From Prorocentrum cordatum (taxonomy: Eukaryota): 64,000 nt of DNA. The stretch's first letter is position 1; each line of letters begins with the position of its first letter. This document shows positions 340 to 45,625 of the stretch, one piece after another. The stretch spans positions 3,472,001 through 3,536,000 of the forward strand of contig CAUYUJ010000001.1 of assembly GCA_963575745.1 (NCBI GenBank), read 5' to 3'. Position numbers and translations under genes: made by a program. The notes beneath the pieces were generated by a model that saw only the letters and a list, made by a program, of their open reading frames with translations, was not told the origin of the DNA and did not search any database.

Positions 340-1244
340 GCAAAAACGACTGCTGAATATGCTGACGCTCCGGCCAGACCCGGGTGCTACGTAGGTGTTG
401 GGAGGGCGGGTGGGAGTGAACGAGACGGCTTGCGATCGGGGAGGGAGTTTTGACCCCTCCCCCTACCCCTTCCCCTGGATTTGGACGGGGGAATCGCGAC
501 GCGTTGGAACGTCCGAAATGGCCCAAAACGGCCCCAACAGCGTCTCGGAGAGCCCAAGATGACCTCCAATATAGCTCAAGATAACCCAATATGCTCCAAG
601 ACGGCTTCCCGGATGCTCCAAGAGGCCCCAAGAACGCTCCAAGAGGGCCCCAGGTGGCCACAGAGCCCCCCCAGGAGGCCTCCCAAATGCCAGCATCCTT
701 CCAATGCCCAAAGAATATCACGTTGTTTTTGCATTCTCGCCTTTTCGCTTCCGATGGCCATCCGAAGTCTCAAGTTGGCTCCAAGATGGTTCCTAGAAAA
801 ACCCAAGAGGCCTCCATGACGGCCCCAACAGCGCCCACGAGCGCCCCAAGAAACGACTTTAGGCACTCTAGAAGGGTAGCCCTGATTGAAGCTCCACTCA
901 TTTCTGATCGACGTCTTCCAATATGGTTCCAAGGGCGCCCCTAAAGCTCCCAAGAACGCCGCCAGAGGGCCCCAGGAGGCGCCGAGACGGCCCCAAGAGG
1001 CGCCCAATGGGCATCCAAAGGGCTCCCACGACCCCCCCAAAATGCTTCCAGAGGATCCCCGAGGCACCCAAGGCGCTCAAAGACAGCCTCGGGCTCGCCA
1101 AGATGCCCGTCCAGGCGCCCCAATAGGCCTCCGAAAAATTTCCACAGGACATCCTCGGCGAGACGCATTCAAAAAACTTATGAGTCTTCTGTTCGCCCGT
1201 TTCCATTTCCTCCTCCTCCTCCTCCTCCTCTTCCTCACCATCGA

Positions 1245-1301
<57 letters not shown>

Positions 1302-2693
1302 AACCATCATCCGCTTACTCCTCCTCCTCCTCCCTCCTGCCTCCTCTCCCTCGCCTGCCTCCTCTTCCTCCTCCTCCTCGTTATGTTCCATGCTCTCCTC
1401 CTCCTCTTCCTCCTCGTCCTCGTTGTCCTCCTCCGATTGATCCTCCATCCTCTCCCTCTCGTGGTATAGCGTCTCACCCATCCAAGCGTTTCACTGGATT
1501 TTACTTCGCATCCCTGACCAGGGCAGCTCGTCTGGGCATCTTTTTTTCTGGATGGGCTGGCGGGGTTAGTTTGGCTCGAAAACCGGGCAAAGCGAGGGCT
1601 GGCCGCGCCGAAGCAAAGGAACAAACATAACGGAGTAACGCCCCGCTCAGAAGCGGGGGCAGTGTCCAATAGGTCGTAAGGGCAGACCGACACGGTGACC
1701 ACGAACACAGTCTCCCGGTAGGGCGCGGGTGCGAAGCCGAACAGGACGACCCGCTGGTGGGGTTACTTTTAATCCGCGAGCGACGCGGCACAACCGCGCG
1801 CCGTCAAGAGCGAAGCAACAGCGCTACGATCTAAATTTGGCACCAAACGCGCAGGAGCGAACTACGCTGCGACCCAGCAGGCGAAAGGGACGCTGAGGAT
1901 CAGGCCCGCGTGGGACGCAAATGCCATCACAGAAGGCCAGGAGGTGCACCTGGTCCGCGTGCAGCGCCAAAATGGCGAGGTAGGTCGAGCCCTGGTTCCC
2001 GAAGATCACATCCGCGTAGTCGAGGGGGACGATGACCATTGTCACGTAGTCGAGGAGGGCAAACCGTGCAGGCGCTCAACGGAGGACTCCGGATCGCCAG
2101 GGAAGAGGCCGTGAGCTCACGAGCGCAAAAGTGGCGGGCGTGCGTGCGGGGGGAAGCACGACGGCGGGGGCCGCGGCGGTGGAGCAATGACAGCGCCAAG
2201 AAGAGCACCGACAGCGAGGCGGCGGGACGCCAGGAACATCGCCACACTCGTGGAGGAGATGCCCAGGCCGGCAAGGTACTGGTGGGGTTACTTTTTGTTA
2301 CTAGCCGCAGGCGAGCGCGCCGACGGCGTGTCAAGGTCCGAGCGGGCCACGCGAGGTCCTAAATTTTCTAGCACAAACAGGCCTACCGCCGCAACGCACG
2401 CCGAAACCAGGAAGTGGCCGAGGGGGGGGGGGGGGGGCAGTGGGCTGCAAGCTGCCAGGGGCTGCAAACGAGCATCGAGCTGCAGACGAGACTGGTGGGG
2501 CTACGTTTTTTTTGTTTTTTATGTTTTTTTTTTTTTTGTTGTGTGTGTGTGTGTGTTTGTGATCTGCGGCTCCAAGGACGATTCCAGAGCGGGTCGTATC
2601 GAGCATGGGGCAGCACGCAAGATAATTGCCAGCGGGCCAAAAGCCAACGCCGGAATGCACACGTCTGGTGGGGCTACGCGAAGCGTCTAGAAT
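340..2693 (+). mobile_element. Non-autonomous composite element: CCAAGA-repeat block, (CTC)/(CAT) microsatellite, ~1.2 kb conserved body, 3' ACGC-GAA-GCGT hairpin. Putative Helitron2/Helentron-like
   Basis: Same block order as 43143-45625 on the minus strand, with colinear sequence similarity over ~1490-2690. Ends CTGGTGGGGCTACGCGAAGCGTCTAGAAT. The 5' boundary is approximate and the class is inferred. Confidence 0.6.
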
Positions 2694-3154
2694 TTCTCTT
2701 CCTCCTCACTCAGCTCCTACTGCTCCTCTTCCTCCTCCTCCTCCTCCTCCTCCTCCTTTCCAGGTCTTCCTCCGTCCTTGCTGTACTGTCCTTCCCCCCC
2801 GCATCCTCCAGGCGCGGCCTGGGCGCGAGACATAGCGTCCACCGTCTTTGCCATGAAGTTCATGTACCTCCCCCTTTCTGCATTACACTTCTTATTCCAC
2901 TGCTCCGCATCCTCCGCTTCCTCTTCCCATCCTGCTCTTGCTCCTAATGCTACTGTACTGCTGCTGTAGCACTGTAGCACGCTGACTGGATGGCCGCAGG
3001 AACAGGGCCAGTCGCAAAAGCAGCGGTACCGTCGCCGCACTCGCGATGCCCCGCCGATGCCAGTCCGTGCCCCCGCCGTGCAGACACCATCCCCATCCAT
3101 CCCAATAGGAGGACGCCGCCTGACGCAACGCTGCCGTGGAATGACCAGCCGACG

Positions 3155-3500
3155 ACAACTGACAACCCCGATGCTGAACGCCTCCAGTTCGGGGCGGCCC
3201 GCGCGGCCGCGGGAGCCAGCGCGGGCGCGCGGGCACCAGGCAGCCGGCTGGAGAGTTTGAAGGGGTCCTGGGACACAAATAAAAAGACACAAATAACAAG
3301 ATTCCCCATATTTTCTCCTATTTTCTGGGTTTTCGTCTTCCCCCCCGCTTCCCATATTTTCGCATATTTCCCGGAGGAAACGACGATTCATAGTGTCCGT
3401 GTGTTTTTTCCCTCCTCAGATAACCAGATAACTGACAACCCCGATGCTGAACGCCTCCAGTGCGGGGCGGCCCGCGCGGCCGCGGGAGCCGGCGCTGGCG
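3155..3500 (+). repeat. Local direct duplication of ~70 bp (about 3158-3225 and 3430-3497)
   Basis: AACTGACAACCCCGATGCTGAACGCCTCCAGTYCGGGGCGGCCCGCGCGGCCGCGGGAGCC-like sequence occurs twice. The intervening 3255-3420 segment resembles 4470-4630. Confidence 0.85.
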
Positions 3501-12258: not shown

Positions 12259-12935
12259 TCCGCCACCGTGCCCTTGAGGCGCGAGTTGGAATGTCCTAAA
12301 GTCCCTTGTTGGATCCCGTGTGGCTTCAGTCCTCAGTCCTGAAAATCTTCAAAGCGCCCAGACCCCAAATTGCCAAATCGTCTGGCCCCTGGGGTTCTTG
12401 GCGTGCCCCCTGGGGCCGGGGGCGTCTTGCCGCATGACCCTTTCGGGTCCACATGAGCCCCAAGACGGGCCACGAGGGTCCGGAGATGCCTTCAAGGCGG
12501 TCCACGAGGGCCCCGAATCGCTAATCAATCGCTCGAGGTCGCGCAAGATAGCCTCCAAGACGCCCCAAGAGGCTTCCAAGAGGCCTCCCAAGAGAGTCCG
12601 ACGAGGCAAACATCATTTAGCTATTCAAAAGAATTTGGACGATTTTGGCGTTATCGCCTTTTCCCGACGCTCCAGGACGGTTTCAGAGGCCCCCAAGAGA
12701 TCCCAAAACGGCCTAAGAGGTCTCCAAGAGGGTCCCAAGACTGCCCAGAGGCCCCCCGAAGTCCCCCAGAAAGCCCCAAGGGGCCCCCAGGAGGCTCCCA
12801 AAAGGTTCCCAAGTGGCCGCCGAACTGCCCCCAACAGGCCCCCGAGAGCGCTCCGAAGAGACCCCTAGAAGCATGCCTGAGAATTCTAGCCCACAATCCA
12901 TGCCCAGTGGCGGCATGGGCCGAAGGCCATTAGAT
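12259..12935 (+). mobile_element. ~680 bp CCAAGA-type element with 5' hairpin, subterminal IR and 3' GGCC-GAA-GGCC hairpin
   Basis: 5' TCCGCCAC then stem CGTGCC/GGCGCG (12267-12283). 3' GTGGCGG (12907-12913) is the reverse complement of CCGCCAC, followed by ATGGGCCGAAGGCCATTAGAT. Confidence 0.7.
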
Positions 12936-13704
12936 CTATGAAATGGATGGAACGCCCACAGTCGGGTCAGTCTGAGTTAGTGCATTACTTTATCTAGGCG
13001 CATTCAAGCTCCACATACGTGCTGTCCTGGTTTGCTGCGCAATCGAATGCATCGTGCCCTCGGCCTCCTTGTGTCGGCACTGACGGGCCACCCAGACAGC
13101 GTCCCATCAAGCGGCAAGAACTGTGCTGGATACTGCTTGGTCCAGGCAAATGCATGTTTGTATGCAGGACCTCCCGAAGGCGTGATCTTTCAAGGGCCTC
13201 GTGACTGAATGTTGGAAGGGCCGAAGCTGGGCACCTCACCTTCGCTCGGGTCACCCGTGCATATTGACTGTTCGTAGCACTTCGTCACCGGCCCAACCTG
13301 ACATTCATCCCAGTCGCACCGAACAGAAGGGTCGACCTGGCCCAAGTCCTCAGCTGGTGCACCAGCCATCACCACAATGGCCCGCCATGCTGATCTCCGC
13401 GGGAGCCTTCAACAATTCACTTTGCACCTCCGTGACAGCATGCATGCTGTCGACGACCAACTTCGAGGGGACCGTACAGTCGCCCTCCTCACCGATAGGG
13501 TCGGACGAGACGGGGGAGTCGGGGTAGCGAGCCAACTCGCGCAGCTGTCTGGCGCGAGGCGGAGCCGGAACGGGCGTGGCAGTGGAGCCGGAAGGGGCCG
13601 CGTGCAGCAGACGTCGGCACCCCCCTTCCCTTTCGCAGGGCCCGGCCCGAGCGACCACAGGGCTGCAGAGGCAGCCACAACGCCCGCAGGTGCTCGGGCG
13701 GAGC

Positions 13705-15530: not shown

Positions 15531-15647
15531 TTGCCATATCCTAAGATGGGGTTCTTGTTCCCCATATCCTAAGATGGGGTTCTTGTTCCCCATATCCAAA
15601 GATGGGGTTCTTGTTATTCCCCATATCCAAAGATGGGGTTCTTGTTA
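15531..15647 (+). repeat. Four tandem copies of a 27-31 bp hairpin unit TTCCCCATATCCAAAGATGGGGTTCTTG(TTA)
   Basis: Copies start at 15531, 15558, 15586 and 15617, with a fifth at 20689. Internal stem CCCCAT/ATGGGG. Confidence 0.92.
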
Positions 15648-16560
15648 TTGGCGGACCGCGCCGGAAGGACACAGGACAGAACACCACACCCACCACTCAT
15701 CACGCAGACTCACCACTCAGATTCACTCATCACTCAGTCATCACTCAGACTCAGGCGATTCGCTCGTCTCAGCAATCTAAGGGGGGCGGCGGGGGGGTAT
15801 TTCACGGGGTCCCGTTCGCGGAATTTTGTGGGGATGTCTCAGGCGGTTTGGCCATTTTCTGATCCAGCGTGTTTCGTTTTCGGAGCAGATTTGGAGGATG
15901 TCTCAGGCGATTCGCTCGTCTCAGCACTCTAAGGGGGGCGGTGGGGGGGTATTTCACGGGGTCCCGTTCGCGGAATTTTGTGGGGATGTCTCGAGCGGTT
16001 TGCCTGTTTTCTGTGCCAGCATCCTTCGCTTTCGGAGCAGATTTGGAGGATGTCTCGAGCGAGGCGCTCATTTTCACCCCCCAGGTGGGCCAGATTTTGA
16101 GGATGTCTCGATCGGTTTGCTTGTTTTGGTGGCCAGGCTCGTGGGCGCATATTCTTCTCTGGATGCCACAGGAGGCTCCAACAGGCTCCAGGAGGCCCCA
16201 GGAGACATCATGAGGTCCCAGGAGGCATCAGGAGGCCACAGAAAGACTCAAGAGGCCACAGGATGTCCCAAGAGGCTCCAGGAGGCCCCAGGAAGCTCCG
16301 GACGGCCTCAGGAAACCACAGGAGGCCCCACGAGGCAACAGGAAGCGCCAGGAGGCCTCGGAAGGCAACAGGAGGCCCCGAGAGGCCCCAGGAGCAGGAG
16401 GCTTCAGAAGGCAACAGGAGTGGCTCCAATCCCATGTGTTTTACGTATGCTCCTATCGATTGGGCCTCACCTGGAGCACGAGTCTTTTGATGTTTTACGT
16501 ATGTTTCTATAGATTGTCCTTCTCCTGTGTACACAATCCTACATATTTTACTAATGTTCC

Positions 16561-16612
<52 letters not shown>

Positions 16613-17699
16613 GCCTCTCCTGGGGCACGAGTCCTTTGTGTTTGACGCGTGTTCCTATAGATTGCCCTTCTCCTGTGGCACGAATCCGCAATGGTTTATG
16701 TACGTCTGTTGCTATATATTGCGCCTCTCCTGGGGCACGAAACCTCCCTAGGAGGTCCCAGGAGGCCCCAAGAGGCTCCTGGAGACCCCAGGAAGCCCCA
16801 GTAGGTTTCAGGAGGCCCCAGGAGGCCCGAGGCTCATGCACAAAGACGCGCTCGTACTACTGAGGCTCATTCACACTCCAATTCATTCGCAGTTAGATTT
16901 ATGTCCTGACCGTCACAACTGAAGCCCGTGTATATTCGAAAGCTCTTGCGCCTAGACATTCACGGCGGACAGGTCCATGCGAATAGATGCACATATGGGG
17001 AGCTCCACCAGTGATTATTGGCGGACCGCGCCGGAAGGACACAGAACAGGACAGAACACCACACCCATCACTCAGACACTCATCACTCAGACTCACTCAT
17101 CAAGACTCACTCATCACTCAGACTCAGTCCTCACTCAGACACACCACTCATCACTCAGACTCACCACTCAGATTCACTCATCACTCAGACTCACTCATGC
17201 TCTCTCATCACTCAGACTCAGTCATCACTCAGACTCAGGCGATTCGCTCGTCTCAGCAATCTAAGGGGGGCGGCGGGGGGGTATTTCACGGGGTCCCGTT
17301 CGCGGAATTTTGTGGGGATGTCTCAGGCGGTTTGGCCATTTTCTGATCCAACATGTTTCGTTTTCGGAGCAGATTTGGAGGATGTCTCAGGCGATTCGCT
17401 CGTCTCAGCACTCTGATTCGCTCGTCTCAACAATCTAAGGGGGGCGGCGGGGGGGTATTTCACGGGGTCCCGTTCGCGGAATTTTGTTGGGATGTCTCAG
17501 GCGGTTTGGCCATTTTCTGATCCAACATGTTTCGTTTTCGGAGCAGATTTGGAGGATGTCTCAGGCGATTCGCTCGCCTCAGCACTCTAAGGGGGGCGGC
17601 GGGGGGGTATTTCACGGGGTCCCGTTCGCGGAATTTTGTGGGGATGTCTCAGGCGGTTTGGTCATTTTCTCTTCCAACATGTTTCGTTTTCGGAGCAGA

Positions 17700-17723
17700 T
17701 TTGGAGGAAGAGGAGGAGGAGTC

Positions 17724-17754
<31 letters not shown>

Positions 17755-17959
17755 GGAGGAGGAGGAGGAAGAGGATGAGGATGAGGATGATGATGATGAT
17801 GATGATGCTGATGATGATGATGATGATGAGGGGGAGGAGGAAGAGGAGGAGGATACTGGGGAGGAGGAGGAGGACGATGATGAGGAGAAGGAGGTGAACA
17901 TGAACACGAGTAGGAGCAGTAGAATGGGATGATGATGATGATGATGATGGTGATGCTGG

Positions 17960-18035
<76 letters not shown>

Positions 18036-18040
18036 GGTGG

Positions 18041-18080
<40 letters not shown>

Positions 18081-18420
18081 CGCAACGACGATGGCCGCGC
18101 CGCTTTTTTGATAATCGAGGAGGAGGAGGAGGAGGCGCAGGAGGAGGAGGAGGAGGAGGAAGAGGAGGAGGAGGAGGAGGAGGAGAGGAGGAGCAGGAGG
18201 ACGGGGAGGGGCAGGAGGAGGAGCAGGAGGAACTTCGAACTTCGAGGTCTGGAGGCCCGTTTCGGGCTCCGGCACTGATGATGGTGATGATGATGATGAT
18301 GATGATGATGAGGATGATGAGGAGGAGGGGGAGGGAGGAAGGAGGAGGAGGAGGAGGGGAAGAGGAGGAGCAGGAAGGGGATGATGACGACGATGACGAT
18401 GACAATGAGGACGGGAGGCC
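17700..18420. repeat. Compound (GAG)n/(GAT)n/(GGT)n microsatellite
   Basis: Seen directly; it interrupts array unit 2. Confidence 0.95.
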
Positions 18421-21400
18421 GTACTCGCGAGGGATGAACAACAAGGTAATGATGATGAGGCCGGTACTCGCGGGTTCTACCACGTTCTTACGTGCCAAGG
18501 GTACGGTGGCGGAAATATCAAACCCGTCCCCCTGCGAACACATTTTAAGACAAATATCGTGCCGAGCTCGATCCCCACGTCTTCTCGCACACCACTGGGG
18601 CGCGATTTGTGGGAGTTCCAGAAATGGAACAAGGAGTCATTTGCATTTCGCTGCCACGGAAAAATCCGCGTTCTATTTTCTCTTTCCCCCCCTCCTCCTC
18701 CTCCTCCTCCTCCCTCTCCCTCCCTCCCTCCCTCTCTCTCTCTCTCTCCCTGCCGGCTGTGAGGATGTCTCGAGCGAGCAGGCAGTGCTGTAAGTAGGGA
18801 GCATGTTGCCCACACTCATGCCCACTCACACTCAAACGGAGGACGCGTCAGCAAGGATGTGTAAAACAATCCTATCACGCTCAGAGAGCGTTACAATCTA
18901 CGTTTCGCGTGTCGTGAGGCGTTCCTTGACATATACCCATAGAAAGACTTATCAAGGGATTGATATGCATGGAAATCCATGGAAAGATGTGCCAAGAGAA
19001 TGAGATGCACATATGGGGAGCCCCGTGTCGAGTAATTGGCGGACCGCGCCGGAAGGACACAGAACAGGACAGAACACCACACCCATCACTCAGACACGCA
19101 CGTAAGTTATTCCCCATATCATCACTCAGACTCACTCATGCTCTCTCATCACTCAGACTCAGTCATCACTCAGACTCAGGCGATTCGCTCGTCTCAGCAA
19201 TCTAAGGGGGGCGGCGGGGGGGTATTTCACGGGGTCCCGTTCGCGGAATTTTGTGGGGATGTCTCAGGCGGTTTGGCCATTTTCTGATCCAACATGTTTC
19301 GTTTTCGGAGCAGATTTGGAGGATGTCTCAGGCGATTCGCTCGTCTCAGCACTCTAAGGGGGGCGGCGGGGGGGTATTTCACGGGGTCCCGTTCGCGGAA
19401 TTTTGTGGGGATGTCTCAGGCGGTTTGGTCATTTCTGGGCCCAACATCCTTCGCTTTCGGAGCAGATTTGGAGGATGTCTCGAGCGAGGCGCTCATTTCA
19501 GCACCCCTAAGGGGAGCCGCCAGGGGTGTTTGCACGGGCTCGTTCGCGGCCATTTTGTGGGGATGTCTCAGGCGGTTTGCTTGTTTCTGGGCCCAACATC
19601 CTTCGCTTTCGGAGCAGATTTGGAGGATGTCTCGAGCGAGGCGCTCATTTCAGCACCCCTAAGGGGAGCCGCCAGGGGTGTTTGCACGGGCTCGTTCGCG
19701 GCCATTTTGTGGGGATGTCTCAGGCGGTTTGCTTGTTTCTGTGCCCAACATCCTTCGCTTTCGGAGCAGATTTGGAGGATGTCTCGAGCGAGACGCTCAT
19801 TTTCACCCCCCAGGTGGGCCAGATTTTGAGGATGTCTCGATCGGTTTGCTTGTTTTGGTGGCCAGGCTCGTGGGCGCAGATTCTTCTCAGGATGCCACAG
19901 GAGGCTCCAACAGGCTCCAGGAGGCCCCAGGAGACCACATGAGGTCCCAGGAGGCATCAGGAGGCCACAGAAAGATGTCCCAAGAGGCTCCAGGAGGCCC
20001 CAGGAAGCTCCAGAAGGCCTCGGGAAACCACAGGAGGCCCCAGGAGGCAACAGGAAGCGCCAGGAGGCCTCGGAAGGCAACAGGAGGCCCCGAGAGGCCC
20101 CAGGAGCAGGAGGCCTCAGAAGGCAACAGGAGTGGCTCCAATCCCATGTGTTTTACGTATGCTCCTATCGATTGGGCCTCACCTGGAGCACGATTCTTTG
20201 ATGTTCTACGTATGTTTCTATAGATGGTCCTTCTCCTGTGTACACAATCCTAAATGTTTTACTCATGTTCCTATGTATTGGGCCTCTCCTGGGGCACGAG
20301 TCCTTGGTGTTTTACGCGTGTTCCTATAGATTGCCCTTCTCCTGTGGCTCTAATCCGCACTGTTTTATGTACGTCTGTTGCTATAGATTGCGCCTCTCCT
20401 GGGGCACGAAACCTTCCTAGGAGGTCCCAGGAGGTCCCAAGAGGCTCCTGGAGACCCCAGGAAGCCCCAGTAGGTTTCAGGAGGCCCCAGGAGGCCCCAG
20501 GCTCATGCACAGAGACGCGCTCGTACTACTGAGGCTCATTCACACTCCAATTCATTCGCAGTTAGATTGATGTCCAGACCGTCACAACTGAAGCCCGTTA
20601 ATATTCGAAAGCTCTTGCGCCTAGACATTCACGGCGGACAGGTCCATGCGAGTAGATGCACATATGGGGAGCTCCACGCAGTGAATAATTCCCCATATCC
20701 AAAGATGGGGTTCTTGTTATTGGCGGACCGCGCCGGAAGGACACAGAACAGAACAGGACAGAACACCACACCCACCACTCATCACTCAGACTCACCACTC
20801 AGATTCACTCATCACTCTGACTCACTCATGCTCTCTCATCACTCAGACTCAGTCATCACTCAGACTCAGGCGATTCGCTCGTCTCAGCAATCTAAGGGGG
20901 GCGGCGGGGGGGTATTTCACGGGGTCCCGTTCGCGGAACTTTGTGGGGATGTCTCAGGCGGTTTGGCCATTTTCTGATCCAACATGTTTCGTTTTCGGAG
21001 CAGATTTGGAGGATGTCTCAGGCGATTCGCTCGTCTCAGCACTCTAAGGGGGGCGGCGGGGGGGTATTTCACGGGGTCCCGTTCGCGGAATTTTGTGGGG
21101 ATGTCTCGAGCGGTTTGCCTGTTTTCTGTGCCAGCATCCTTCGCTTTCGGAGCAGATTTGGAGGATGTCTCGAGCGAGGCGCTCATTTTCACCCCCCAGG
21201 TGGGCCAGATTTTGAGGATGTCTCGATCGGTTTGCTTGTTTTGGTGGCCAGGCTCGTGGGCGCAGATTCTTCTCTGGATGCCACAGGAGGCTCCAACAGG
21301 CTCCAGGAGGCCCCAGGAGACATCATGAGGTCCCAGGAGGCATCAGGAGGCCACAGAAAGACTCAAGAGGCCACAGGATGTCCCAAGAGGCTCCAGGAGG

Positions 21401-21673
21401 CCCCAGGAAGCTCCGGACGGCCTCAGGAAACCACAGGAGGCCCCAGGAGGCAACAGGAAGCGCCAGGAGGCCTCGGAAGGCAACAGGAGGCCCCGAGAGG
21501 CCCCAGGAGCAGGAGGCTTCAGAAGGCAACAGGAGTGGCTCCAATCCCATGTGTTTTACGTATGCTCCTATCGATTGGGCCTCACCTGGAGCACGAGTCT
21601 TTTGATGTTTTACGTATGTTTCTATAGATTGTCCTTCTCCTGTGTACACAATCCTACATATTTTACTAATGTT

Positions 21674-21709
<36 letters not shown>

Positions 21710-24544: not shown

Positions 24545-25712
24545 CAAAGGGGGGCCAGCCAGAAGTGCTTTCACAGACCCGTTCGCTGCCACTTTGTGGG
24601 GATGTCTCAAGTGGTTTGCTCGTTGTCATGCCCAACATCCTTTGCGTTCAAAGCAGATTGTGAGGATGTCTCAGGCGGGGCGCTGGTTTCAGCGACCCCA
24701 AGGGGAGCCGCCAGGGGTGTTTTCACGGGCCCGTTCGCGGCCAATTTGTGGGAATGCCTCAGGCGGTTTGCTCGTTGTCATGCCTAACATCCTTTGCTGT
24801 CAGAGCAGACTGTGAGGATGTCTCAGGCGGGGCGCTGGTTTCAACACCCCTAAAAGGAGCCGCCAGTGGTGTTTTCACGGGCCCGTTCGCGGCCAACTTG
24901 TGGGGATGCCTCAAGCGGTTTGCTCGTTGTCATGCCCAACATCCTTCGCTTTCAGAGCAGACTGTGAGGATGTCTCAGGCGGGGCGCTGGTTTCAGCACC
25001 CCTGAAGGGGAGCCGCCAAGAGTGTTTTCATGGGCCCGTTCGCGGCCAGTTTGTGGGGATGTCTCAAGCGGTTTGCACGTGCTCATGCCCAACATCCTTA
25101 GCTTCAAGAACAGATTGTGAGGATGTCTCTGGCGGGGCGCTGGTCTCAGCACCCCTAAGGGGAGCCGCCAGGGGTGTTTTCACGGGCCGTTCGCGGCCAG
25201 TTAGTGGGGATGTCTCAGTTTGTGGGGATGTCTCAGGCGGTTTGCTCGTTTTCATGCCCAAGATCCTTGGCTTTCAAAGCAGATTGTGAGGATGTCTCAG
25301 GCGGGGCGCTGGTTTCAGCACCCCTAAGGGGAGCCGCCAGGGGTGTTTTCACGGGCCCGTTCGCGGCCAATTTGTGGGGATGCCTCAGGCGGTTTGCTCG
25401 TTTTCATGACCAACATCCTTTGCTTTCGGAGCAGATTGTGAGGATGTCTCTGGCGGGGCGCTGGTTTCAGCACCCCAAAAAGGAGCCGCCAAGGGTGTTT
25501 CCACGGGCCCGTTCGCGGCCAATTTGTGGGGATGTTTCAAACGGTTTGCTCGTTCTCATGCCCAACATCCTTTGCTTTCAGAGCAGATTGTGAGGATGTC
25601 TCAGGCGGGCCGCTGGTTTCAGCATCCCTAAGGCGAGCCGCCAGGGGGTAGGACACGGGCCCGTTCGCGGCCATTTTGCGGGGATGTCTTAGGCGGTTTG
25701 CTCGTTTTCATG
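24545..25712. repeat. ~152-bp tandem satellite, block 2
   Basis: Same unit as 22440-23890, about 7-8 copies. Confidence 0.95.
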
Positions 25713-28477
25713 ATACGAGGAAGGAGATGAGACGTGCTGCTCCCTTGGGTCGTGCTCCGGCACGTAAGAGGGGGAGGGGGAATAAATGGGAGGCTCATAT
25801 TCAATCATACTCAAAGCTCACTCTGACTCATACTCACCCACTCGCATTACATAGGATTCACTCGTCTTCGTCGGCCCTGCCGCCCATGTGGACGCGCTAT
25901 CATAGTCAAGCGCTCATGAACAGACGCTCACCTTGGCAGGACATAAGACATGAGATGCACATATGGGTAGCTCCACGCAGTGAGTAATTACTATTTGGGT
26001 AAGTGTGGAGGAGGCAATACCGTATCGAGTGGGACATGGGGGCCTGGAGGGGATAGCCATCGAGGAGAGAGCGTGGAACAGAGGATAAGTGGACGGGGGA
26101 AGAGACTTGGGGAAGGAATGGGACTGGAAATAAAAACGATTGTACTGGAAGGGGGGTGGGGAGCGGGAAAAAGAAACGAACAAAAGAAAAAGAGGCTGGA
26201 CATCAGCCGGAATCCTCCCATCCAAAGCTCGACTGCTGACTACTCTCGGTGCTTGTTACTGTGATTCTCCGCTCTCCTGAATCGACGCTTTCTTGGGGGA
26301 TCGCGGGGCCAGAAGAGCCCCTTGCCCTGCGCTTCCCTCCCGCATCCCTCCAGGGTAGAGGGGAGGGGCAGGGGAAAAGGAAGGGGTGTGTGGTTGATGG
26401 CGGGTGAAAGGAGGGAAGAGGCCGTTTGCTCTTTTCCAGCGCAACTTCGGAGCAGACGGAGAAGGAGGAGGCCAGTGGGAGACAACGCGAAAAGCGGCCT
26501 TGCAACTGTGGCGCGTCCAGGGAACCGCCTGGCACCATCCAGCCGGTCTGGACTAAGACGCATAGGTCCACGAAGGACGGAGGAGGAGGGGAAGGCAAGC
26601 TAGGTGCGCTCGCGTCATATCTGACGTCCTACCCCTTCCTCCCATCCCTTACCATGGCGTAGACATGCCCTCTATTCGCACAGACGGATGTCGAGCAGGG
26701 CAAAGATCGCGAGAGGGTACGCGATGTATGGTAGAGCACGGCATGGTATGGCGTAGAAGAGCACGGCAGAGCGGGTCATGCCATACCATGTCGTGGCATT
26801 GCGCAGTGAAGCATCGCATTACAAAGCATTGCAACGCAAAACATGGCATCGCACAGCGGCGCAGAACACAACAACACACAGCATGTCATGGCGCCAGGTT
26901 CAATGTCTAGCTCCTTGGGCTCCCCGAAAAGCTCCACACAAGACAGGGCTGATGGAGAGCACCCGCTAGCTCTGCTTTCAACACCGCCTTCTCAAAGCAG
27001 AAACGCGGCTCCCGCTTCATGCTTCCTGAAACCGACGACGCCCCAAAGTGGGGGGGGGCCTCTGCGGCCCAAAGAATCAGCGAATCGACACCGAATGTCT
27101 AATCACTTCGGATGGTTTTTTCGGGGGGGGCATTTTCTAGATTTTGGGCTTAATTCGCTATCTCGAAGGACCTAAAACGCCCGCGCTGCAGCGGGAACAC
27201 GATTTGGAACAACCAGAAGCGCAGAGATGGGGCCAGCGCTTCAGCGGAAGCAACACATTGAAAAACCCAAGCGAAAGCCCAACTCCTGGGAATCCCGTGT
27301 AAGGAAACAGTACGTGGAGAGGGGCAGGACATCTTCCGGACGTCATCAGGGGAGAGAGGAGAGCAGTATTCATATTGTGTAGTTGTACAGACAACAGACG
27401 CATGGACGGATGACGGATGTAGGATGATAGAAAGGAAGACACCGCCGAGCTGGTGTGGGAAACAGACGCTGGGATTGCCAGGAGGCCCGAAGGGGGGAGG
27501 GCACGGCCTGCCACGACCGGCGTGTACACAACGCTACAGTTGGCACTGTCTTGCCGGCCTGGACTGCAATATACTGCGATTCCTCCAGGGGAGGGCGGAT
27601 GAGTAAAGGACGCACATTCGCAGCGAATCCGCGCGCAACAAGTGAACCTTGGAGCACGGCGGCGCCTCTCCACCCAACAGTGCATACCCATCAAGCGAGA
27701 TTTGCGGCGAGCGGAGGGGAACTGGGGGGAGGAAACAATGGTGGACCAGGAGGGGAAGCCAGACCAGATAACCACGCAACTGCAGGCCGCTTGCAGAGGC
27801 CGAACAGCCAAGCCTCACGACGCTTGTAGGGGGGGCGACGGCGAGGAAGAGGCAGGCGGAGGAGGCGAACTGTCGGCCGTCTTGCGGGGCTAGCCAAGAT
27901 TCCGCCTCCAGGAGACAAGCGCTGCAGGAAAGACAAGAAAAAGGGAGTGCGCGCGGCCCGGTTGCAGCCAAGACAGGCTCTTGACTACTCAGGCACAGCT
28001 GCGCGGCGATTGCTGACAGAAGGGGGCAAAAGCGAGGATCCGTCGGACGCCGCTCTTCCAACTCGCGCCGGCGAGGGCCGACGCAGACCAGTCACGCAGA
28101 GCCCAACAGCATTCAAAACGCACGGGAATCTCGGTTGCCCTGGCAAGGGCGCAGGATGCGAGCAGAGCGAGAGAGAGAGAGAGAGAGAACGAGAGAGAGA
28201 GAGGGGTGCGTGCAGCGTGTCCGCGCACCACTGACTCGAGTCCAAGTCTGGGCTGCGTCGCGCACCCGAAGCGTCCAGCGTCCGCCGCGGCGGGGCCAAG
28301 CCCGCGCAGGCAGGGTGCTCGGTGCATCGCAGACGCCCGCAGGCCGCGAAAGCAGCCGCGCCGGGGTCACTCTGCAAGCCGAAGTCCGAAGCGAAGGCAC
28401 GGTGAATGGCAGGTCGCCAGTGCGGACAGGTGTCTGGGCCTAGCTGCTAGCTAAGACCAGGTGGAGGAAGCCATGGC

Positions 28478-29842: not shown

Positions 29843-30694
29843 GCCGCCAGCCCTCTGGGCGTAAGTGGTTTAGCGAGCTTCCTCTTCCAGCTTCCCTCTT
29901 CCCCTTCGTGGAAGGGTTCACCCCTCCACCTGACCCCCCCCGGGTTTGAATGGGGCGTTCCGCGAGGTGTCAGAAGTTTTTTAAATTGTGATATAAAAAA
30001 TGGCCGCCTTGGCGAGGAGGCCAACATCATTGATTGTATAAGAAGTGTTGGCCACATGTTGGCCTCCTGGGGGTGAGGGCGTAAAGGAGGAGCCCTGCTG
30101 TGATCGATCTCCTGTGAAATGGCACCCGAGGCTCCCAAGGATACCTCAAGATGGCCCACGAGGTGCCGAGGAGGCCTCCAGGGGCCCCCAAGAGGCCCCC
30201 AATATGCCCCCAAGAGGCTCCCAAGAGACCCCCAAGAGGCCCCCCAGAGGCACCAAAGTCGCCCCAAGGGACCTCGACGAGAAGGCCCAAGTGTTGGCCA
30301 CATTTTGGTTTCCTTGGGAGGGGACTCTGATGTACTACGGCCTCTCCTTTGATCGATCTCCTCCAGGATGGCCCCATGGCTCCAAAGGGTACCCCAAGAC
30401 GGCCCCGCGAGGTGCCGGAGGCCCCAAGAGGCCCCCGAAAAGGCCCCCAAGCTGCCCCCAAAATGTTCCCACGAGACCCCCGCCCCGAGAGGCCCCCCAA
30501 AGGTGCCGAGAACGGACGCCCCAATGGGCCCCCGGGATTGCCAAGAGACCCCAAAACGCCCCAAAAGGACTCCAAGAAGCTCCCGGGTATGACGTCTTAC
30601 CCAGCCCTTTCTTCCTCTGCGTGCTCCTCCACATCCCTGACCAGAACAACTCGTCTGGATGGGCTGGCGTGGTTAATGCGGGATGGCGATAAAT
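29843..30694 (+). mobile_element. CCAAGA-type element with subterminal IR CCGCCAGCCC / GGGCTGGCG
   Basis: 5' CCGCCAGCCCTCTGGGCGTAAG (hairpin GCCC-TCT-GGGC) matches the terminus at ~45600-45624 on the minus strand. 3' GGGCTGGCG at 30661, with a degenerate downstream hairpin. Confidence 0.65.
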
Positions 30695-38700: not shown

Positions 38701-38719
38701 CCACGCTGACTGTTCAGGC

Positions 38720-42310: not shown

Positions 42311-43037
42311 CCGGCCACCAAATCGGCGCCGCACCTCACATAACCATATGAATCCGCTAGGAGCCCTACAGAGGCAAACTCTGATTGGGAAATATCGGTT
42401 GGCGACCGGGTTCCCGGGTTTCCGGGTCTGGCGAAAAAAGCCCAGGCGTTTTCGGTGGGCGGCCGGGTTTCGGCGTGCGGGTTCCAGGCCGAGTTCCCTG
42501 CACTGTACGGATGCCAGGCTCTCGAGTTTTCGTTACGGCTCAGCTCCAAGCTCTCTGCCCCTGGAGCATCGGTACCCTGGAACAGCACTCGGACACCGCA
42601 GCCCTGCGCCCTTGCAGGCTCGCACTGAACAGTCCGGACTGCCTCTTAACAAGACTCCATTTGGAGCCTGGGACGCTGCACCAGCTCTTGGACACGTTCA
42701 TCCTGCCCTGAGTGCGCCCTCCGCCGTGCCCTTCTCTGCGATCCTATCCCCCTGCCCGCGCATTGGTGCCGATTAGCTTTCTTGGCAGCCCCGCCTAGCT
42801 ATGTGTAGATTTTTTGCAGGCGCCAAGACCGTGACAAAGCATGGATTCGCTGCAGCGAAATAGCCGGGTCTTTGCGACCACGGCCATCATAAGGGCACAT
42901 GCTAGAGGGTACAGAGTAGTAATCCAAAAAGTAGAGAGCAGAGTTGAATACAGAGAATAGGAATACGTAGTAGAGAGTAGACACCAGAGCAAATTAAGAG
43001 GGTATACGAAGTAAGCATAATAGACATATATGCATAC

Positions 43038-43144
43038 ATACGTAGCACCCCGTAATTGCTGATAAGGAGTGAGGGGGCGGCGGGGACGTCGGCAGTCTGC
43101 GAGGCAGTGAAAAAGCTCGCCGCGGGCACCAAACTTTTTTACAA
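43038..43144 (+). repeat. ~110 bp dispersed repeat; inverted copy at about 60574-60686
   Basis: TACGTAGCACCCCG...GGACGTCGGCAGTCTGYGAGGC...AACTTTTTACAAA is shared between the two copies. Confidence 0.85.
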
Positions 43145-45625
43145 ATTCTTCATGCTTCGCGAATCCCCACCAGAGTTCATCTACAGTGGTGGAGGCGCCC
43201 GTCACTCTGTCCGTTCCGTGGTTCCAAGTGTTCTGGCAGTCAGGTCCGCGCGTTCTGACCACCTCAGGCTGTGCTGCACTTCCCTGGCTCTGGTCCCCCG
43301 CTGGCCCCTGGGGTGCTGGTGCTCGCAGGGAGTGGTTCAGCCTTCTTGTCCAGCCTGGCGTGGCCCCTGGCGGTCTGCATCCCATTCCTCTGGCGCCAGG
43401 TGGCGACAAGGTAATTCCCGTGCCTGGCGATCTCGCTCCCATGGTACTCGCACGTTGCAACTTCCCAGCCGCCTCCGCAGCTGGCAGCTTCCACCCCTCG
43501 GCGCAGCCCAGCCCCGGCGCAGCTCCCCTCGGCGGTAGGATTAGTCTGCTTGCTCGGCGCGCGCGCGCCGGCAATTAGGGTGCTCGCGGCCCGTGCTACT
43601 CTTCTGACGCTGTTGGCGCGCTCGCCTGCAGCTGCGACGACAAAAATAGCCACCAGACTGGTCACACCTGGAGTACGACGGCCTGCCACCGTCTTCCCCC
43701 GCCGCCCCTGCCTTGCGCACGAGGTCGTCGGGAACCCCCCCCGACCCTGGACGCAGGTCTGCGGGCCTTCCTTTCGTCGCGGCCACGCTGGTTGCGCCCG
43801 AGGTTCGCCTGCTTGCCTCTCTCTATTTCGGGGATACCACAGAGCCCCTGGGCCCGCGGCTGGCCGTGAGTCCGCTGCCGCTGCCCACCCGGGGTTGACG
43901 GACATCCGGTCCTCCCCCAAGTCGCCTTCCCCAGGGTCTGCTCCTGTCCCTGGCGTTGGCTCTCGCCGCCTCCTTCGCAGGCGTGTGGCTTCCTTCCGCT
44001 GGTTCTCCGCATCTGCTGCCTCTGGGCCGCCCTGGCGCTGCCTTCCCCCTGTCCCCCCGCCCGTGGTGACGCTACCGTCGCTTCCACGCCCCTCGCTCCG
44101 ACCCTTGTCGGCGTTTGGCGATCCAGAGCCTACTCCGTTGAGCGCCTGTATGTCGCTGATTGACGTTCTCTTCTGTTGCATCACGGCAGTCTTTGAATAC
44201 GTGGACTTCATGAATTTCGCCATTTTGGTGCTGCACCTCGACCAGTGGTTCCTCCTGGTCCACCGCGTCTCTTGTGCCAGCGTAGCTCGCTCCTGTGTGC
44301 TCTTGTGCGAAATTTAAATCGTTGTTTGTTAGCCGCGTTTCTTGACGGCGCCTGGCACCCCTGCGCGCTCGCGAACCAAAAGAATCCCCACCAGACCGTT
44401 CAGAGACCCTGACCTTGAGAGCTGACGCGGAAAAGGGGCGAAGATACATATCTAGTGAAACAGAGCGAGCAACCAGGGTGAACAGAGAGATCTCTGGGAG
44501 CAATGGGGTGGCCTTGGAAGGCCTCTTCGGGCCATCCCTGGGGGCCGCGTGGGAGCGAGGGGAGGAGGAAGACGACGACGACGACGGAAACGCCCTAGGA
44601 CGACAACGACGATCAGGAAGAGGAGGAACAAGAACAGGAGGACGATGAGGGCAAGGACGAGGACGAAGACGAGGAGGAGGACAACGGCGACGAGGATCCA
44701 TGGAGCCATCTTGTGTGGATATGGATTAGGACGAGGAGGACATCGATAAGGATGAGGGGCACGAGGACGTCGAGGATGATAACGAGGATGATAACGAATA
44801 CGAGGACGAGGAGGACGAGGAGGACAAGGACGAGACAGATGACGAGGGGGTGCGACGAGGAGGAAGAGGAGGACGAGGATGACGCGGACGAAGACGATGA
44901 GGAGACAAGGTAAAAGGAGGGCGAGGACTCTGGCAGACATCTTGGAGTCTTCTGGAGGCTCCCTCGCGGCTCATTTGGGGTCCTCTTGGAGCCCTCTTGG
45001 GGCTCTCTTGGGGCTCTCTTGGGAGCCCTGGAGCGCCTCTTGTGGCCATCTTGGAGGCTATCGATTTAAGGAGGGGGGGTCAAGATCTAGATCCCCCCCC
45101 TGGGGCCCTCAAAACCGCCTCTTGGGGTCCCCTCTTAGGGCCCCCTCTTGGGGCGCTCTTGGTGCCGTCTTGGGCGCCTCTAGGGCCCCTCTTGAGGCCT
45201 TCTCGGGCCATCTTGGGGCCATCTTGAGGCCGCCAAAGCGCAGCGGAAGTGAAACGGCGAGACAACACAAATCATCAATTTTCCCTAGGTCTTTGAAGGA
45301 TTTTAGGCTCTTGAATTGGTCCTGGGGGGTCGCCGAGCGCACTCGGAGCAGTCTTGTGGCCCTCTTGGGGCCTCTTGGAGGCATGGCGGTCATCTTGAGC
45401 GGTCTTGCGCTATCTTGAAACATCTAAGACGCTATCTTGGAACATCAGAGGCCCTCGTGGAGCAATCTTGACTGGACACGGGCTCTCTGATGACTCGCGG
45501 CTCCTTCCCAGAAAAGCCCTGGGAGGGGAGGGGGAGGATACCCCTCCCCGAAGGGACGACGTGCTCCTTTGGAAGAGAAAAGAAAAACATCGTTAGACAA
45601 CCTACGCCCAGAGGGCTGGAGGTAT
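43143..45625 (-). mobile_element. Second composite element of the 340-2693 family
   Basis: On the minus strand: 5' CCTCCAGCCCTCTGGGCGTAGG, CCAAGA block (45560-44935), CTC/GTC low complexity, conserved body, then 3' CTGGTGGGGATTCGCGAAGCATGAAGAAT. Confidence 0.65.

What the first reader, a model, noticed from the sequence alone, without database searches (positions are those of the whole stretch)
340..45625. Several non-coding element families share one rolling-circle-like end architecture with 3' C-GNA-G mini-hairpins
Seen in the sequence: elements whose terminal sequences differ all end in a short motif followed by a triloop hairpin. Examples are ACGC-GAA-GCGT (about 2676-2686), GC-GAA-GC (about 43154-43160, minus strand), GGCC-GAA-GGCC (12918-12928) and CTC(C)AC-GCA-GTGAG (array ends). 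Where the 5' end is visible, it starts with the inverse of that motif plus a small hairpin: CCGCCAC/GTGGCGG, CCGCCAGCCC/GGGCTGGCG, TCCCCATAT/ATATGGGGA. No clear TSDs are seen. Established knowledge: Helitron2/Helentron and DINE-1/HINE elements have asymmetric subterminal IRs, a 3' stem-loop and internal tandem repeats, and d(GCGAAGC)-type GNA triloops are unusually stable ssDNA hairpins. Inference: a diverse HUH-mobilised non-autonomous system accounts for much of this genome's repeat content. No Rep/helicase gene is present in the window.
Basis: partly seen in the sequence, partly recalled or inferred. Interest (0 to 1): 0.8.

Follow-up and report, generated by a model that had tools for sequence, protein, structure and literature searches.

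The report
Helitron2-like repeats ending in mini-hairpins
Several non-coding repeat families in this GC-rich eukaryotic window have the end structure typical of Helitron2/Helentron-type rolling-circle transposons, with a tiny, very stable DNA hairpin just inside the 3' end, so they look like new members of a known transposon kind whose enzyme was not found.

Summary
All cited motifs are at the stated coordinates. C-GNA-G mini-hairpins are not enriched in the window overall (123 seen vs 148±10 simulated). Only 5 of the 35 with stems of 3 bp or more sit at element ends.

The ends themselves are real. A metagenome scan gave 108 loci, of which 49-50 are true copies. They have unrelated bodies but share a ~45-nt 3' end. 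Conservation falls to background 9-10 nt after the GCGAAGCG hairpin, and independent copies stop aligning there.

Element B (45622-43144, minus strand) interrupts a host repeat whose intact paralog lies at 60574-60578. It inserted in a T-run with no target-site duplication.

[quoted passage not shown] This is the Helitron2 geometry described by Bao & Jurka 2013.

Internal tandem arrays, head-to-tail clusters and an excess of 3' ends also fit. No Rep/helicase was found, and no genome was available, so the transposase is inferred. Verdict: new members of a known kind, moderate interest.

The parts
370..2694 (+). Element A, a composite family-1 copy. It has a 5' inverted-repeat block (CCGGCCAGACCC, 370-381), an ~11-nt CCCAAGAGGCC-type degenerate array (~509-1140) and trinucleotide microsatellites (1198-1446). 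A tail region holds repeated 3' blocks. It ends ...CTGGTGGGGCTAC-GCGAAGCGT-CTAGAATT.
   Evidence: Collinear with B: 61% over 1059 nt plus three further blocks. The end was placed by the metagenome consensus. A contig of run X1 is identical over 2767-3010 at unique depth (~2), just beyond the end.
1554..1569 (+). Internal 3' inverted-repeat block (GGGCTGGCGGGGTTAG) without a GNA hairpin. It is homologous to the 3' end of element E.
   Evidence: read from sequence
1754..1766 (+). Internal block CTGGTGGGGTTAC followed by a T-run and a GC-rich palindrome. It corresponds to position 44394 in B.
2279..2291 (+). Internal block CTGGTGGGGTTAC followed by a T-run, then GCC-GCA-GGC (2304-2312). It corresponds to position 43656 in B.
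2492..2504 (+). Internal block CTGGTGGGGCTAC followed by a long T-run.
2665..2673 (+). Terminal 3' inverted-repeat block of A (CTGGTGGGG). It ends 21 nt from the 3' end.
2676..2686 (+). Subterminal mini-hairpin ACGC-GAA-GCGT of A.
   Evidence: predicted in both the MFE and centroid structures
43144..45622 (-). Element B, a family-1 copy in inverse orientation. Its 5' block CCTCCAGCCC starts at 45622 and its 3' end ...CTGGTGGGGATTC-GCGAAGCAT-GAAGAATT is at 43144. Whether 45623-45625 (ATA) belongs to the element or to the flank is undecided.
   Evidence: Empty-site comparison; collinearity with A.
43154..43160 (-). Mini-hairpin GC-GAA-GC of B. The third stem pair is lost (G to A).
60574..60578 (+). 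Paralogous empty site for B, in an intact copy of the host repeat. The left flank of B aligns up to 60574 and the right flank from 60578. Only TTT lies between them.
   Evidence: BLAST: 45626-45760 ~ 60574-60443 (80%, 135 nt); 43039-43143 ~ 60684-60578 (80%, 110 nt). Alignments.
29844..30676 (+). Element E, a short family-1 copy. Its 5' block CCGCCAGCCCTCTGGGCG matches B's 5' end and its 3' block GGGCTGGCGTGGTTA matches A 1554-1569. The hairpin and tail are decayed, so the exact 3' end is uncertain (to ~30695).
12260..12937 (+). Element D. It has the 5' block CCGCCACCGTGCCC, a CCCAAGAGGCC-type array, the 3' block GTGGCGG (12907-12913) and the hairpin GGCC-GAA-GGCC (12918-12928). The 3' end after the hairpin is not independently fixed.
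   Evidence: An 18-nt identical 5' terminus lies 5 nt after a family-1 3' end in metagenome locus L029.
15534..25989 (+). Family-2 cluster: six head-to-tail composite units carrying 152-bp internal satellite arrays. Each ends ...ACATATGGGGA-GCTCCACGCAGTGAG-TAATT. The next unit starts either at TCCCCATAT (20690) or 5'-truncated.
   Evidence: The left flank is T-rich (15519-15533).
22100..22118 (+). Family-2 3' hairpin CTC(C)AC-GCA-GTGAG plus the tail TAATT. The same is found at 25971-25989, with variants at 20672-20690 and 24209-24227.

Best explanation
These are non-autonomous DNA transposons with the Helitron2 / HLE2 (Helentron, HINE/DINE-1-like) end architecture.

At least three families share one plan: family 1 (copies A, B, E), D, and the 152-bp-array family 2.
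- A short 5' terminal block: CCKCCAGCCC, CCGCCAC or TCCCCATAT.
- A body that tends to hold microsatellites or tandem arrays.
- The inverse of the 5' block, placed subterminally at the 3' side.
- Then 2-5 nt, a 3-4-bp hairpin closed C-G over a GNA triloop, and a short tail ending AATT.

Inferred mechanism, by analogy with Helitrons. A HUH Rep/helicase encoded elsewhere nicks the 5' end and peels off one strand. It recognises the 3' inverted block together with the very stable mini-hairpin as the stop signal, and cuts 9-10 nt beyond it. The strand is then pasted into a T-run without duplicating the target.

Failed or repeated termination and re-initiation would give the head-to-tail clusters, the 5'-truncated units and the excess of 3' ends. 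Internal repeats can expand into satellites.

Shown here: the end geometry, the sharp 3' boundary, one insertion without a TSD in a T-run, and the tandem and 3'-rich copy structure. Inferred: the enzyme and the single-strand rolling-circle route.
For: (1) Sharp, shared 3' end. The scan for CTGGTGGGGNTNCGCGAAGC gave 108 loci. Fifty (49 distinct) carry the tail GTCAAGAATT-like (score >=6/10; the other 58 score 0-5). Information per column is 1.2-1.75 bits at +23..+29, 0.33 at +30 and <=0.17 after that. Selecting copies by upstream sequence only (38 distinct) gives the same drop.

(2) Independent copies of one subfamily stop aligning at 0/±1 of that end: L028/L060, L005/L098, L037/L108, L031/L099, L055/L099. 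Several unrelated bodies share only the last ~45 nt.

(3) Geometry. [quoted passage not shown] The 5' block is at the 5' end, 0-3 nt in B by the empty site. Bao & Jurka 2013 (PMC3627910, passages read) define Helitron2 by 8-15-bp asymmetric TIRs: the 5' one 0-2 bp from the end, the 3' one 20-30 bp from the end and upstream of the hairpin.

(4) Empty site. The flanks of B map to 60574 and 60578 of an intact paralog, with only TTT between and no duplication.

(5) The 5' flanks of six 5' ends share nothing and none is AATT. The conserved AATT is therefore part of the element and not a TSD.

(6) The first flank base after the end is T in 50-55% of copies. The family-2 cluster follows a T-run.

(7) Internal microsatellites and tandem arrays are as described for DINE-1/HINE (PMC4067079, passages).

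(8) 3'-end excess. Summed contig depth is 1330 in bin 2554-2755, against 25-55 over 1342-2553 and ~2 in unique DNA. Bao & Jurka report 5' truncation and 3' overabundance.

(9) Head-to-tail joints. The 3' AATT abuts the 5' TCCCCATAT at 20687-20698. In L002 and L029 a 5' end follows a 3' end within 5-6 nt.

(10) The three families have different stems (CGC/GCG, CAC/GTG, GGCC/GGCC) but the same C-GNA-G form at the same place. The background rate of such hairpins with stems >=3 bp is 35 per 128,000 strand positions.
Against: No Rep/helicase or any transposase domain was found. This covers 182 of the 185 window ORFs of >=130 aa and 100 of the 183 ORFs of >=90 aa in 52 metagenome loci. No genome is held, so the defining protein is untested.

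Only one empty site exists. The two host copies are 80% alike, so 0-3 nt at each junction are ambiguous.

The last base of the 5' flank is T in only 3 of 6 cases.

The search pattern fixed the hairpin, so stem covariation within family 1 could not be tested. The fourth pair does not covary: A 30, G 13, T 3, C 3 opposite T in 42 of 49.

Generic DNA folding gives no signal. The 3' ends have z -0.76 to +1.17 and the 5' ends z -0.14 to -1.58, and the GNA hairpin is the predicted structure in only 2 of the 7 3' ends folded. Such models are reported not to capture mini-hairpin stability (PMC13037366, abstract and passages).

Seven further copies of the 3' block inside A and B, and element E, lack the hairpin. 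None of the 52 metagenome loci has a hairpin-less block, so these junctions are unexplained.

In family 2, two junction copies share about 30 nt beyond the end, because the junction plus the next unit were duplicated together.
Confidence: 0.68

Rival explanations
1. The elements are moved by a different single-strand DNA transposase from Helitron RepHel. Candidates are a Y1 HUH of the Replitron or IS200/IS605 kind, or an undescribed enzyme. The ends resemble Helitron2 by convergence.
For: No RepHel was found. Subterminal hairpins, absence of a TSD and orientation-specific insertion are general to HUH transposons (PMC10288648, passages). The stem-loop is much smaller than the 5-10-bp palindromes described for HINEs.
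Against: Replitrons are marked by short direct terminal repeats, and none is present here: 5' CCKCCAGCCC against 3' ...AAGAATT. The exact asymmetric inverted-repeat spacing is the published Helitron2 signature. IS200/IS605-type elements are not known as eukaryotic chromosomal repeats (recalled, not tested).
Confidence: 0.14
2. They are ordinary cut-and-paste TIR elements (MITEs) whose terminal inverted repeats are imperfect. The conserved AATT would be a target-specific duplication.
For: 5' and 3' inverse blocks of 7-11 nt exist. One 183-bp metagenome element (L048/L082) has a 5' end beginning AATT with partial inverse similarity to the whole 3' end.
Against: The 20-21-nt 3' tail has no counterpart at six 5' ends, and none of those is preceded by AATT. 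The empty site shows no duplication. The strong 3'-end excess and the 5'-truncated head-to-tail units are not expected from cut-and-paste elements.
Confidence: 0.08
3. They are not mobile. They would be satellites and segmental duplications of a repeat-rich genome, with the small hairpins arising by chance.
For: GNA mini-hairpins are not enriched overall. Family 2 is one tandem cluster that unequal crossing-over could build. A and B are only ~61-84% alike.
Against: About fifty copies with unrelated bodies and unrelated flanks share one 45-nt end with a base-sharp boundary. One copy is an insertion relative to a paralog.
Confidence: 0.04

Closest known systems
Helitron2 group (Bao & Jurka 2013), also called HLE2 (HELIANO, Li et al. 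2024)
   Same: Short asymmetric terminal inverted repeats. The 5' one is at the terminus and lies in a small 5' hairpin. The 3' one is 20-30 bp from the 3' end and is followed by a hairpin. Insertion is in T-runs (TTTT^T/C, or T^T) without a TSD. Copies show 5' truncation and 3' overabundance. Basis: for the definitions; for the match.
   Different: No RepHel partner was seen. The 3' hairpin is a minimal 3-4-bp C-GNA-G mini-hairpin. The tail ends AATT. The 5' first base is not consistently T. A and B carry several extra hairpin-less copies of the 3' block.
Helentron-associated non-autonomous elements (HINE; DINE-1/INE-1 of Drosophila), Thomas et al. 2014
   Same: Non-coding. They have subterminal inverted repeats, a palindrome near the 3' end, central microsatellites or tandem repeats that can become satellites, a T-rich target, no target modification and a variable number of terminal T.
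   Different: In mite HINEs the 3' subTIR lies 38-60 bp from the end and the palindromes are 5-10 bp. Here the distance is 20-21 nt and the stem is 3-4 bp. The host is a GC-rich protist-like genome and not an arthropod.
Canonical Helitron (Helitron1/HLE1)
   Same: A subterminal 3' hairpin about 10 nt from the end. No TSD. Non-autonomous families share only their ends.
   Different: There is no 5'-TC and no CTRR-3', the target is not A^T, and the hairpin is 9-11 nt against 16-20 nt. The window has inverse terminal blocks, which Helitron1 lacks.
Replitrons (Craig 2023)
   Same: HUH-type copy-and-paste elements known from algae, with non-autonomous partners.
   Different: Replitrons have short direct terminal repeats. 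These elements have inverse blocks and no direct terminal repeat.
d(GCGAAGC) mini-hairpin DNA (Hirao and co-workers; review PMC13037366)
   Same: The family-1 hairpin contains exactly GCGAAGC. D and family 2 have the same C-GNA-G form.
   Different: The motif is known from phage single-strand origins and from engineered oligonucleotides. Its use as a transposon end signal was not found in print here. One search matched none of four terminal strings, and the listing showed no transposon paper.

Membership tests
Helitron2 / HLE2 | Autonomous partner encodes a RepHel transposase (Y2 HUH Rep fused to a helicase) | not testable with these tools
   No genome is held and the metagenome records cannot be extended. 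No such domain in 182 of 185 window ORFs >=130 aa or in 100 of 183 locus ORFs >=90 aa.
Helitron2 / HLE2 | Short (8-16 nt) terminal inverted repeats, the 5' one 0-2 bp from the 5' end | tested here: met
   Inverse pairs: CCKCCAGCCC / GGGCTGGYGGGG (family 1); TCCCCATAT / ATATGGGGA (family 2); CCGCCAC / GTGGCGG (D, only 7 nt). In B the 5' block starts 0-3 nt from the insertion point.
Helitron2 / HLE2 | The 3' inverted repeat is subterminal, ~20-30 bp from the 3' end and immediately upstream of a hairpin | tested here: met
   21 nt in family 1, with the boundary taken from 38-49 copies. 20 nt in family 2. The hairpin starts 2-5 nt after the block.
Helitron2 / HLE2 | A 5' hairpin that involves the 5' inverted repeat | tested here: inconclusive
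   Such hairpins are predicted for B, E, D and family 2. Their energies are not better than shuffles: z -0.14 to -1.58, with 18-87 of 200 shuffles as good.
Helitron2 / HLE2 | Insertion between T and T, or in a T-run, without a TSD | tested here: met
   One paralogous empty site: insertion in CATA-TTTT-GTAAA with no duplication. The first 3' flank base is T in 50-55% of copies. The 5' flank ends in T in 3 of 6 cases. This rests on a single empty site.
HINE / DINE-1 | Non-coding, with central microsatellite or tandem repeats between subTIRs and a 3' palindrome | tested here: met
   ~11-nt CCCAAGAGGCC arrays and trinucleotide runs in A, B, D and E; 152-bp arrays in family 2.
HINE / DINE-1 | 3' subTIR 38-60 bp from the 3' end (mite HINEs); DINE-1 core sequence | tested here: not met
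   The distance here is 20-21 nt. No similarity to a DINE-1 core was tested.
Helitron1 (canonical) | 5'-TC ... CTRR-3', a 16-20-nt hairpin ~11 bp from the end, insertion between A and T | tested here: not met
   The ends are CCKCC... and ...AAGAATT, the hairpin is 9-11 nt, and the target is a T-run.
Replitron | Short direct repeats at or near both termini | tested here: not met
   The termini share no direct repeat. Definition.
TIR transposon / MITE | Symmetric TIRs reaching both termini, and a constant-length TSD | tested here: not met
   The 3' tail of 20-21 nt is absent at the 5' ends. There is no duplication at the empty site. Six 5' flanks are unrelated.

The most novel reading that the evidence does not exclude
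The shared end (inverse block, C-GNA-G mini-hairpin, AATT tail) marks an undescribed lineage of single-strand-DNA transposons in GC-rich marine-type protists. The exceptionally stable three-base-pair mini-hairpin itself would be the recognition or termination signal. The mobilising enzyme might not be a classical RepHel. Several families with different inverse blocks would then be served by related enzymes and would seed much of the satellite DNA.
Probability: 0.13. Interest if true: 0.8.

Novelty: new member of a known kind. Interest (0 to 1): 0.45.

Why it matters
It explains roughly a quarter of this window, including a 10-kb satellite-bearing cluster. About 16.8 of 64 kb are products of one transposon architecture, which gives annotators exact end signatures for masking and for finding the autonomous partner.

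It is also a natural case in which the 3' stop signal of a Helitron-type element is reduced to the minimal d(GCGAAGC)-type mini-hairpin. That structure is very stable and binds SSB poorly (PMC13037366). This makes the role of the 3' stem-loop in termination directly testable with short oligonucleotides.

The main text of the HELIANO survey of 404 eukaryote genomes does not mention haptophytes or dinoflagellates. The family may therefore come from a poorly surveyed lineage, but the organism was not identified here.

Tried and rejected
- Whole-genome search: no genome is held.
- Rfam and tRNA scans of the window: nothing. The repeated CTGGTGGGGTTAC+TTTT is therefore not a known small-RNA gene array.
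- Earlier findings of the scan, by place, sequence and words: nothing.
- The look-up of sequencing runs listed one DNA run with a small share and no RNA holder, so nothing can be said on expression.
- Read laying gives contig depth in 200-nt bins only. It cannot place the 3' end more finely than 2690-2767, and part of bin 2554-2755 is a (CTC)n run that was partly skipped.
- Viral and prokaryote-genome scans with TGGATGGGCTGGTGGGG, a hairpin-free pattern meant for a covariation test: 19 and 120 loci, all chance matches in phage or bacterial genes, with no true copy.
- Extending metagenome contigs to look for RepHel: the records are not held.
- Homology search of the 362-aa ORF at 57599-58687 (-), tried for organism identification: no hit among proteins of 199-634 aa.
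Not pursued.
- The idea that the CCCAAGAGGCC arrays are coding was rejected. Their periods are 11, 21-22 and 32 nt, not multiples of three.
- The idea that A's four CTGGTGGGG sites are four independent insertions was rejected as unsupported. They are collinear with B's and so were inherited.
- Empty sites for A, D, E and family 2: none found in the window.

Full report
**What the window is.** It has about 58% G+C and is packed with microsatellites and tandem arrays. It holds no tRNA or Rfam family. No Pfam domain above threshold was found in 182 of its 185 stop-to-stop ORFs of 130 aa or more. No whole genome is held. It behaves as a repeat-rich eukaryotic (protist or alga-like) region. I did not identify the organism.

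**Checking the observation.** Taken as a class, however, C-GNA-G mini-hairpins are not special here. With stems of at least 2, 3 or 4 bp I count 123, 35 and 8 on both strands. Thirty first-order Markov simulations give 148±10, 39±4 and 10.5±2.8. Of the 35 with stems of 3 bp or more, only five sit at the proposed ends: 2676, 12918, 20675, 22103 and 25974. The other 30 are scattered. A hairpin alone therefore proves nothing, and the ends had to be defined independently.

**Anatomy in the window.** Low-stringency self-comparison shows that the left and right limits of the finding are two copies of one composite element in opposite orientation. A spans 370-2694 on the plus strand and B spans 45622-43144 on the minus strand.
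- They are collinear at 61% over 1059 nt. Three further blocks follow: 1754-1869 ~ 44394-44278, 2279-2365 ~ 43656-43573 and 2664-2695 ~ 43174-43143.
- Both copies hold a 5' block, an ~11-nt CCCAAGAGGCC-type array, trinucleotide runs, and a tail with several copies of CTGGYGGGG-YTAC.
- Only the last of those copies is followed by CGCGAAGC.
- Element E (29844-30676) shares B's 5' end (CC[G/T]CCAGCCCTCTGGGCGTA) and A's internal block at 1554-1569.
- D (12260 to about 12937) has CCGCCAC...GTGGCGG-CAT-GGCCGAAGGCC.
- Family 2 is a 10.5-kb cluster (15534-25989) of six head-to-tail units with 152-bp internal arrays. Each unit ends ACATATGGGGA-GCTCCACGCAGTGAG-TAATT.

**Independent definition of the 3' end.** A scan of public metagenome contigs for CTGGTGGGGNTNCGCGAAGC returned 108 loci.
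- Fifty-eight are chance matches in GC-rich prokaryote-like sequence; their tail score against GTCAAGAATT is 0-5 out of 10.
- Fifty (49 distinct) are true copies scoring 6-10, mostly 8-10.
- Their bodies fall into several unrelated groups, yet all share ...TGGATGGG-CTGGTGGGG-ATAC-GCGAAGCG-T-CAAGAATT.
- Column information stays at 1.2-1.75 bits up to position +29, is 0.33 at +30 (T in 55%) and is 0.17 or less beyond.
- Because that selection used the tail, I repeated it choosing copies by the eight upstream bases only (38 distinct). The drop is the same: 1.27 bits at +29, 0.26 at +30 and 0.12 or less after.
- Pairs of independent copies of one subfamily stop aligning at 0 or ±1 of this point: L028/L060, L005/L098, L037/L108, L031/L099, L055/L099.

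The element therefore ends 9-10 nt after the hairpin, and the hairpin is subterminal. The same tail form closes family 2 (GAGTAATT). After it the six junctions diverge into four different continuations.

**5' end and asymmetry.** Six 5' ends are available: A, B, E, D, and those in loci L002 and L029.
- All begin CC[G/T]CC. The bases before them share nothing and none is AATT. The conserved AATT is therefore not a target duplication.
- The 5' block is the inverse of the 3' block, which ends 21 nt (family 1) or 20 nt (family 2) from the 3' end.
- The 20-21-nt hairpin tail has no 5' counterpart.
- In L029 an 18-nt string identical to D's 5' end follows a family-1 3' end by 5 nt. This shows that D's start is a recurrent terminus.

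**Empty site.** B lies inside another repeat that carries a GGGTGGGTCGC array. An intact copy of that repeat is at 60367-60700.
- B's left flank (45626-45760) matches 60574-60443 (80%, 135 nt).
- B's right flank (43039-43143) matches 60684-60578 (80%, 110 nt) (alignments).
- Between the two matches the intact copy has only TTT, while the filled copy has 2,482 nt.
- The site reads CATA-TTTT-GTAAAAAG. Nothing is duplicated.
- Because the two host copies are 80% alike, 0-3 nt at each junction remain ambiguous.

**Copy structure in the organism.** One public DNA run holds the same organism: a 263-nt contig is identical to 2767-3010 at depth about 2. Laid at 80% likeness, summed contig depth is 25-55 over 1342-2553, 1330 in the bin 2554-2755 that holds the 3' end, and about 2 just beyond. 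That is a strong excess of 3' ends, although a (CTC)n run lies in the same bin and was only partly skipped. One contig joins 1565 to 2293 with ATTC between, so copies differ in the number of tail sub-units.

**Comparison with the literature.**
[quoted passage not shown] The 5' one lies 0-2 bp from the end and inside a 5' hairpin. The 3' one lies 20-30 bp from the end, upstream of the hairpin. They also report insertion after TTTT without a TSD, and 5' truncation with 3' overabundance.
- HELIANO (PMC11417382; passages) gives the same plan for HLE2, with T-T insertion.
- Thomas et al. 2014 (PMC4067079; passages) describe HINE/DINE-1 with subTIRs, a 3' palindrome, central microsatellites or tandem repeats, T-rich targets, no target modification and variable terminal T.
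- The present elements meet these structural criteria.
- They fail those of canonical Helitrons (TC...CTRR, A^T target), of Replitrons (direct terminal repeats; PMC10288648, abstract and passages) and of TIR elements.

**The hairpin.** Family 1 carries exactly GCGAAGC, D carries GGCC-GAA-GGCC and family 2 carries CAC-GCA-GTG. The stems differ, but the C-GNA-G form and its place 2-5 nt after the 3' block are the same. A recent review (PMC13037366; abstract and passages) reports three things about such mini-hairpins: they are extraordinarily stable, conventional thermodynamic models do not account for this, and they bind SSB poorly.
- Consistently, generic DNA folding gives no signal: z is -0.76 to +1.17 for the 3' ends, and the hairpin is the predicted structure in only 2 of the 7 3' ends folded.
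- Within family 1 the stem could not be tested for covariation, because the search pattern fixed it.
- The flanking fourth pair does not covary.
- A hairpin-free pattern found no true copy in the viral or prokaryote collections.

**What is not explained or not shown.**
- The enzyme is unknown. No Rep/helicase was found in the window or in 100 of the 183 ORFs of 90 aa or more from 52 loci, and the contigs cannot be extended.
- Seven further copies of the 3' block inside A and B are followed by a T-run and a GC palindrome containing GCGAGCG, in place of the hairpin and tail. No such hairpin-less block occurs in the 52 metagenome loci.
- E has a decayed tail.
- A third, very abundant family also starts TCCCCATAT but has a different, longer tail (3261-3420, 4160-4300, 4470-4625; depth 3,000-13,000).
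- The claim about the whole genome's repeat content cannot be judged from one window. Here these families cover about 16.8 kb of 64 kb.

**Verdict.** The Helitron2/HLE2-type reading is the best-supported explanation (about 0.68). The main open alternative is another single-strand transposase (about 0.14). It is a new member of a known kind, with a neat minimal stop hairpin, and of moderate interest. No printed match to four terminal strings was found in the searched library.

Noticed in passing
window 3504-4000; also 37402-37470: An ordinary TIR element: AGTCGGGCGTGTCCCCCTGCAG... at 3504, with its inverse at 3979-4000. A second copy starts at 37402. It is very abundant in run X1 (bin depths 3,500-14,000). 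It is a different kind of element from the finding.
   Followed up: partly
window 3261-3420, 4160-4300, 4470-4625: A third family begins TCCCCAT(A/G)TTTTC and ends ATATGGGRGGGGCCCTGGGGCGCACAAATAAATGGACACAAATA. Copies abut head-to-tail with GCAGGAT between them. It uses the same inverse-block idea as family 2 but has a longer, non-GNA tail. Depth in X1 is 3,000-13,000.
   Followed up: partly
window 1767-1800, 2292-2325, 44381-44350 (-), 43643-43610 (-): After each internal CTGGTGGGG-YTAC block in A and B come a T-run and a GC-rich palindrome containing GCGAGCG. At 2304-2312 there is also a GCC-GCA-GGC hairpin. Whether these are old element junctions or an alternative end form is unexplained.
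   Followed up: partly
window 45627-45920 (-) and 60367-60700 (+): This is the host repeat of element B. It carries an 11-nt GGGTGGGTCGC array followed by a ~200-nt conserved tail. The two copies are ~80-82% alike and in opposite orientation.
   Followed up: partly
window 55900-59900: A ~3.9-kb unit is bounded by direct repeats: 56190-56330 ~ 59480-59610, and 55900-55990 ~ 59860-59930. Long minus-strand ORFs lie inside (56914-57693, 57599-58687, 58882-59556). They have no Pfam domain, and the 362-aa ORF has no homolog. It may be an unknown mobile element or gene.
   Followed up: partly
window 38719-38893 and 52522-52350: A 175-nt inverted pair (94% identity) lies beside kilobase-scale (CTC)n/(GAG)n runs. 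It contains a nested palindrome of CGCTCCGGA/GAGCGCTC units.
   Followed up: no
window 509-1140, 10000-10450, 12440-12870, 16161-16394, 30119-30590, 33808-34364, 44940-45232 (-), 47874-48683 (-), 53200-53700: Degenerate CCCAAGAGGCC arrays with periods of 11, 21-22 and 32 nt (about 10.7 nt per unit, not multiples of three) recur in many elements. F (33737-34361) and G (48594-48001, minus strand) are 72% alike over 649 nt, but their ends were not defined.
   Followed up: partly
window 30680-33100: A strongly strand-skewed A-rich stretch (45-48% G+C, AT skew +0.3) holds ~13-nt AAACAACACGT-type arrays at 32295-33069. It is followed at 33080-33200 by its T-rich inverse.
   Followed up: no
window 29785-29843: The ~60 nt before E's 5' end are a diverged duplicate of E's first ~60 nt (CCTCTGGGCCCAGGCAGTTTAGCGCGCTTGTCCTTCCA against CCCTCTGGGCGTAAGTGGTTTAGCGAGCTTCCTCTTCCA). 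This is a tandem 5' end.
   Followed up: no
locus L061, ~299-365 in motif orientation: Two complete 3' end units lie in tandem: GGGCTGGCGGGGATACGCGAAGCGT followed at once by TTCTGGATGGGCTGGTGGGGATACGCGAAGCATCAAGAATT.
   Followed up: no
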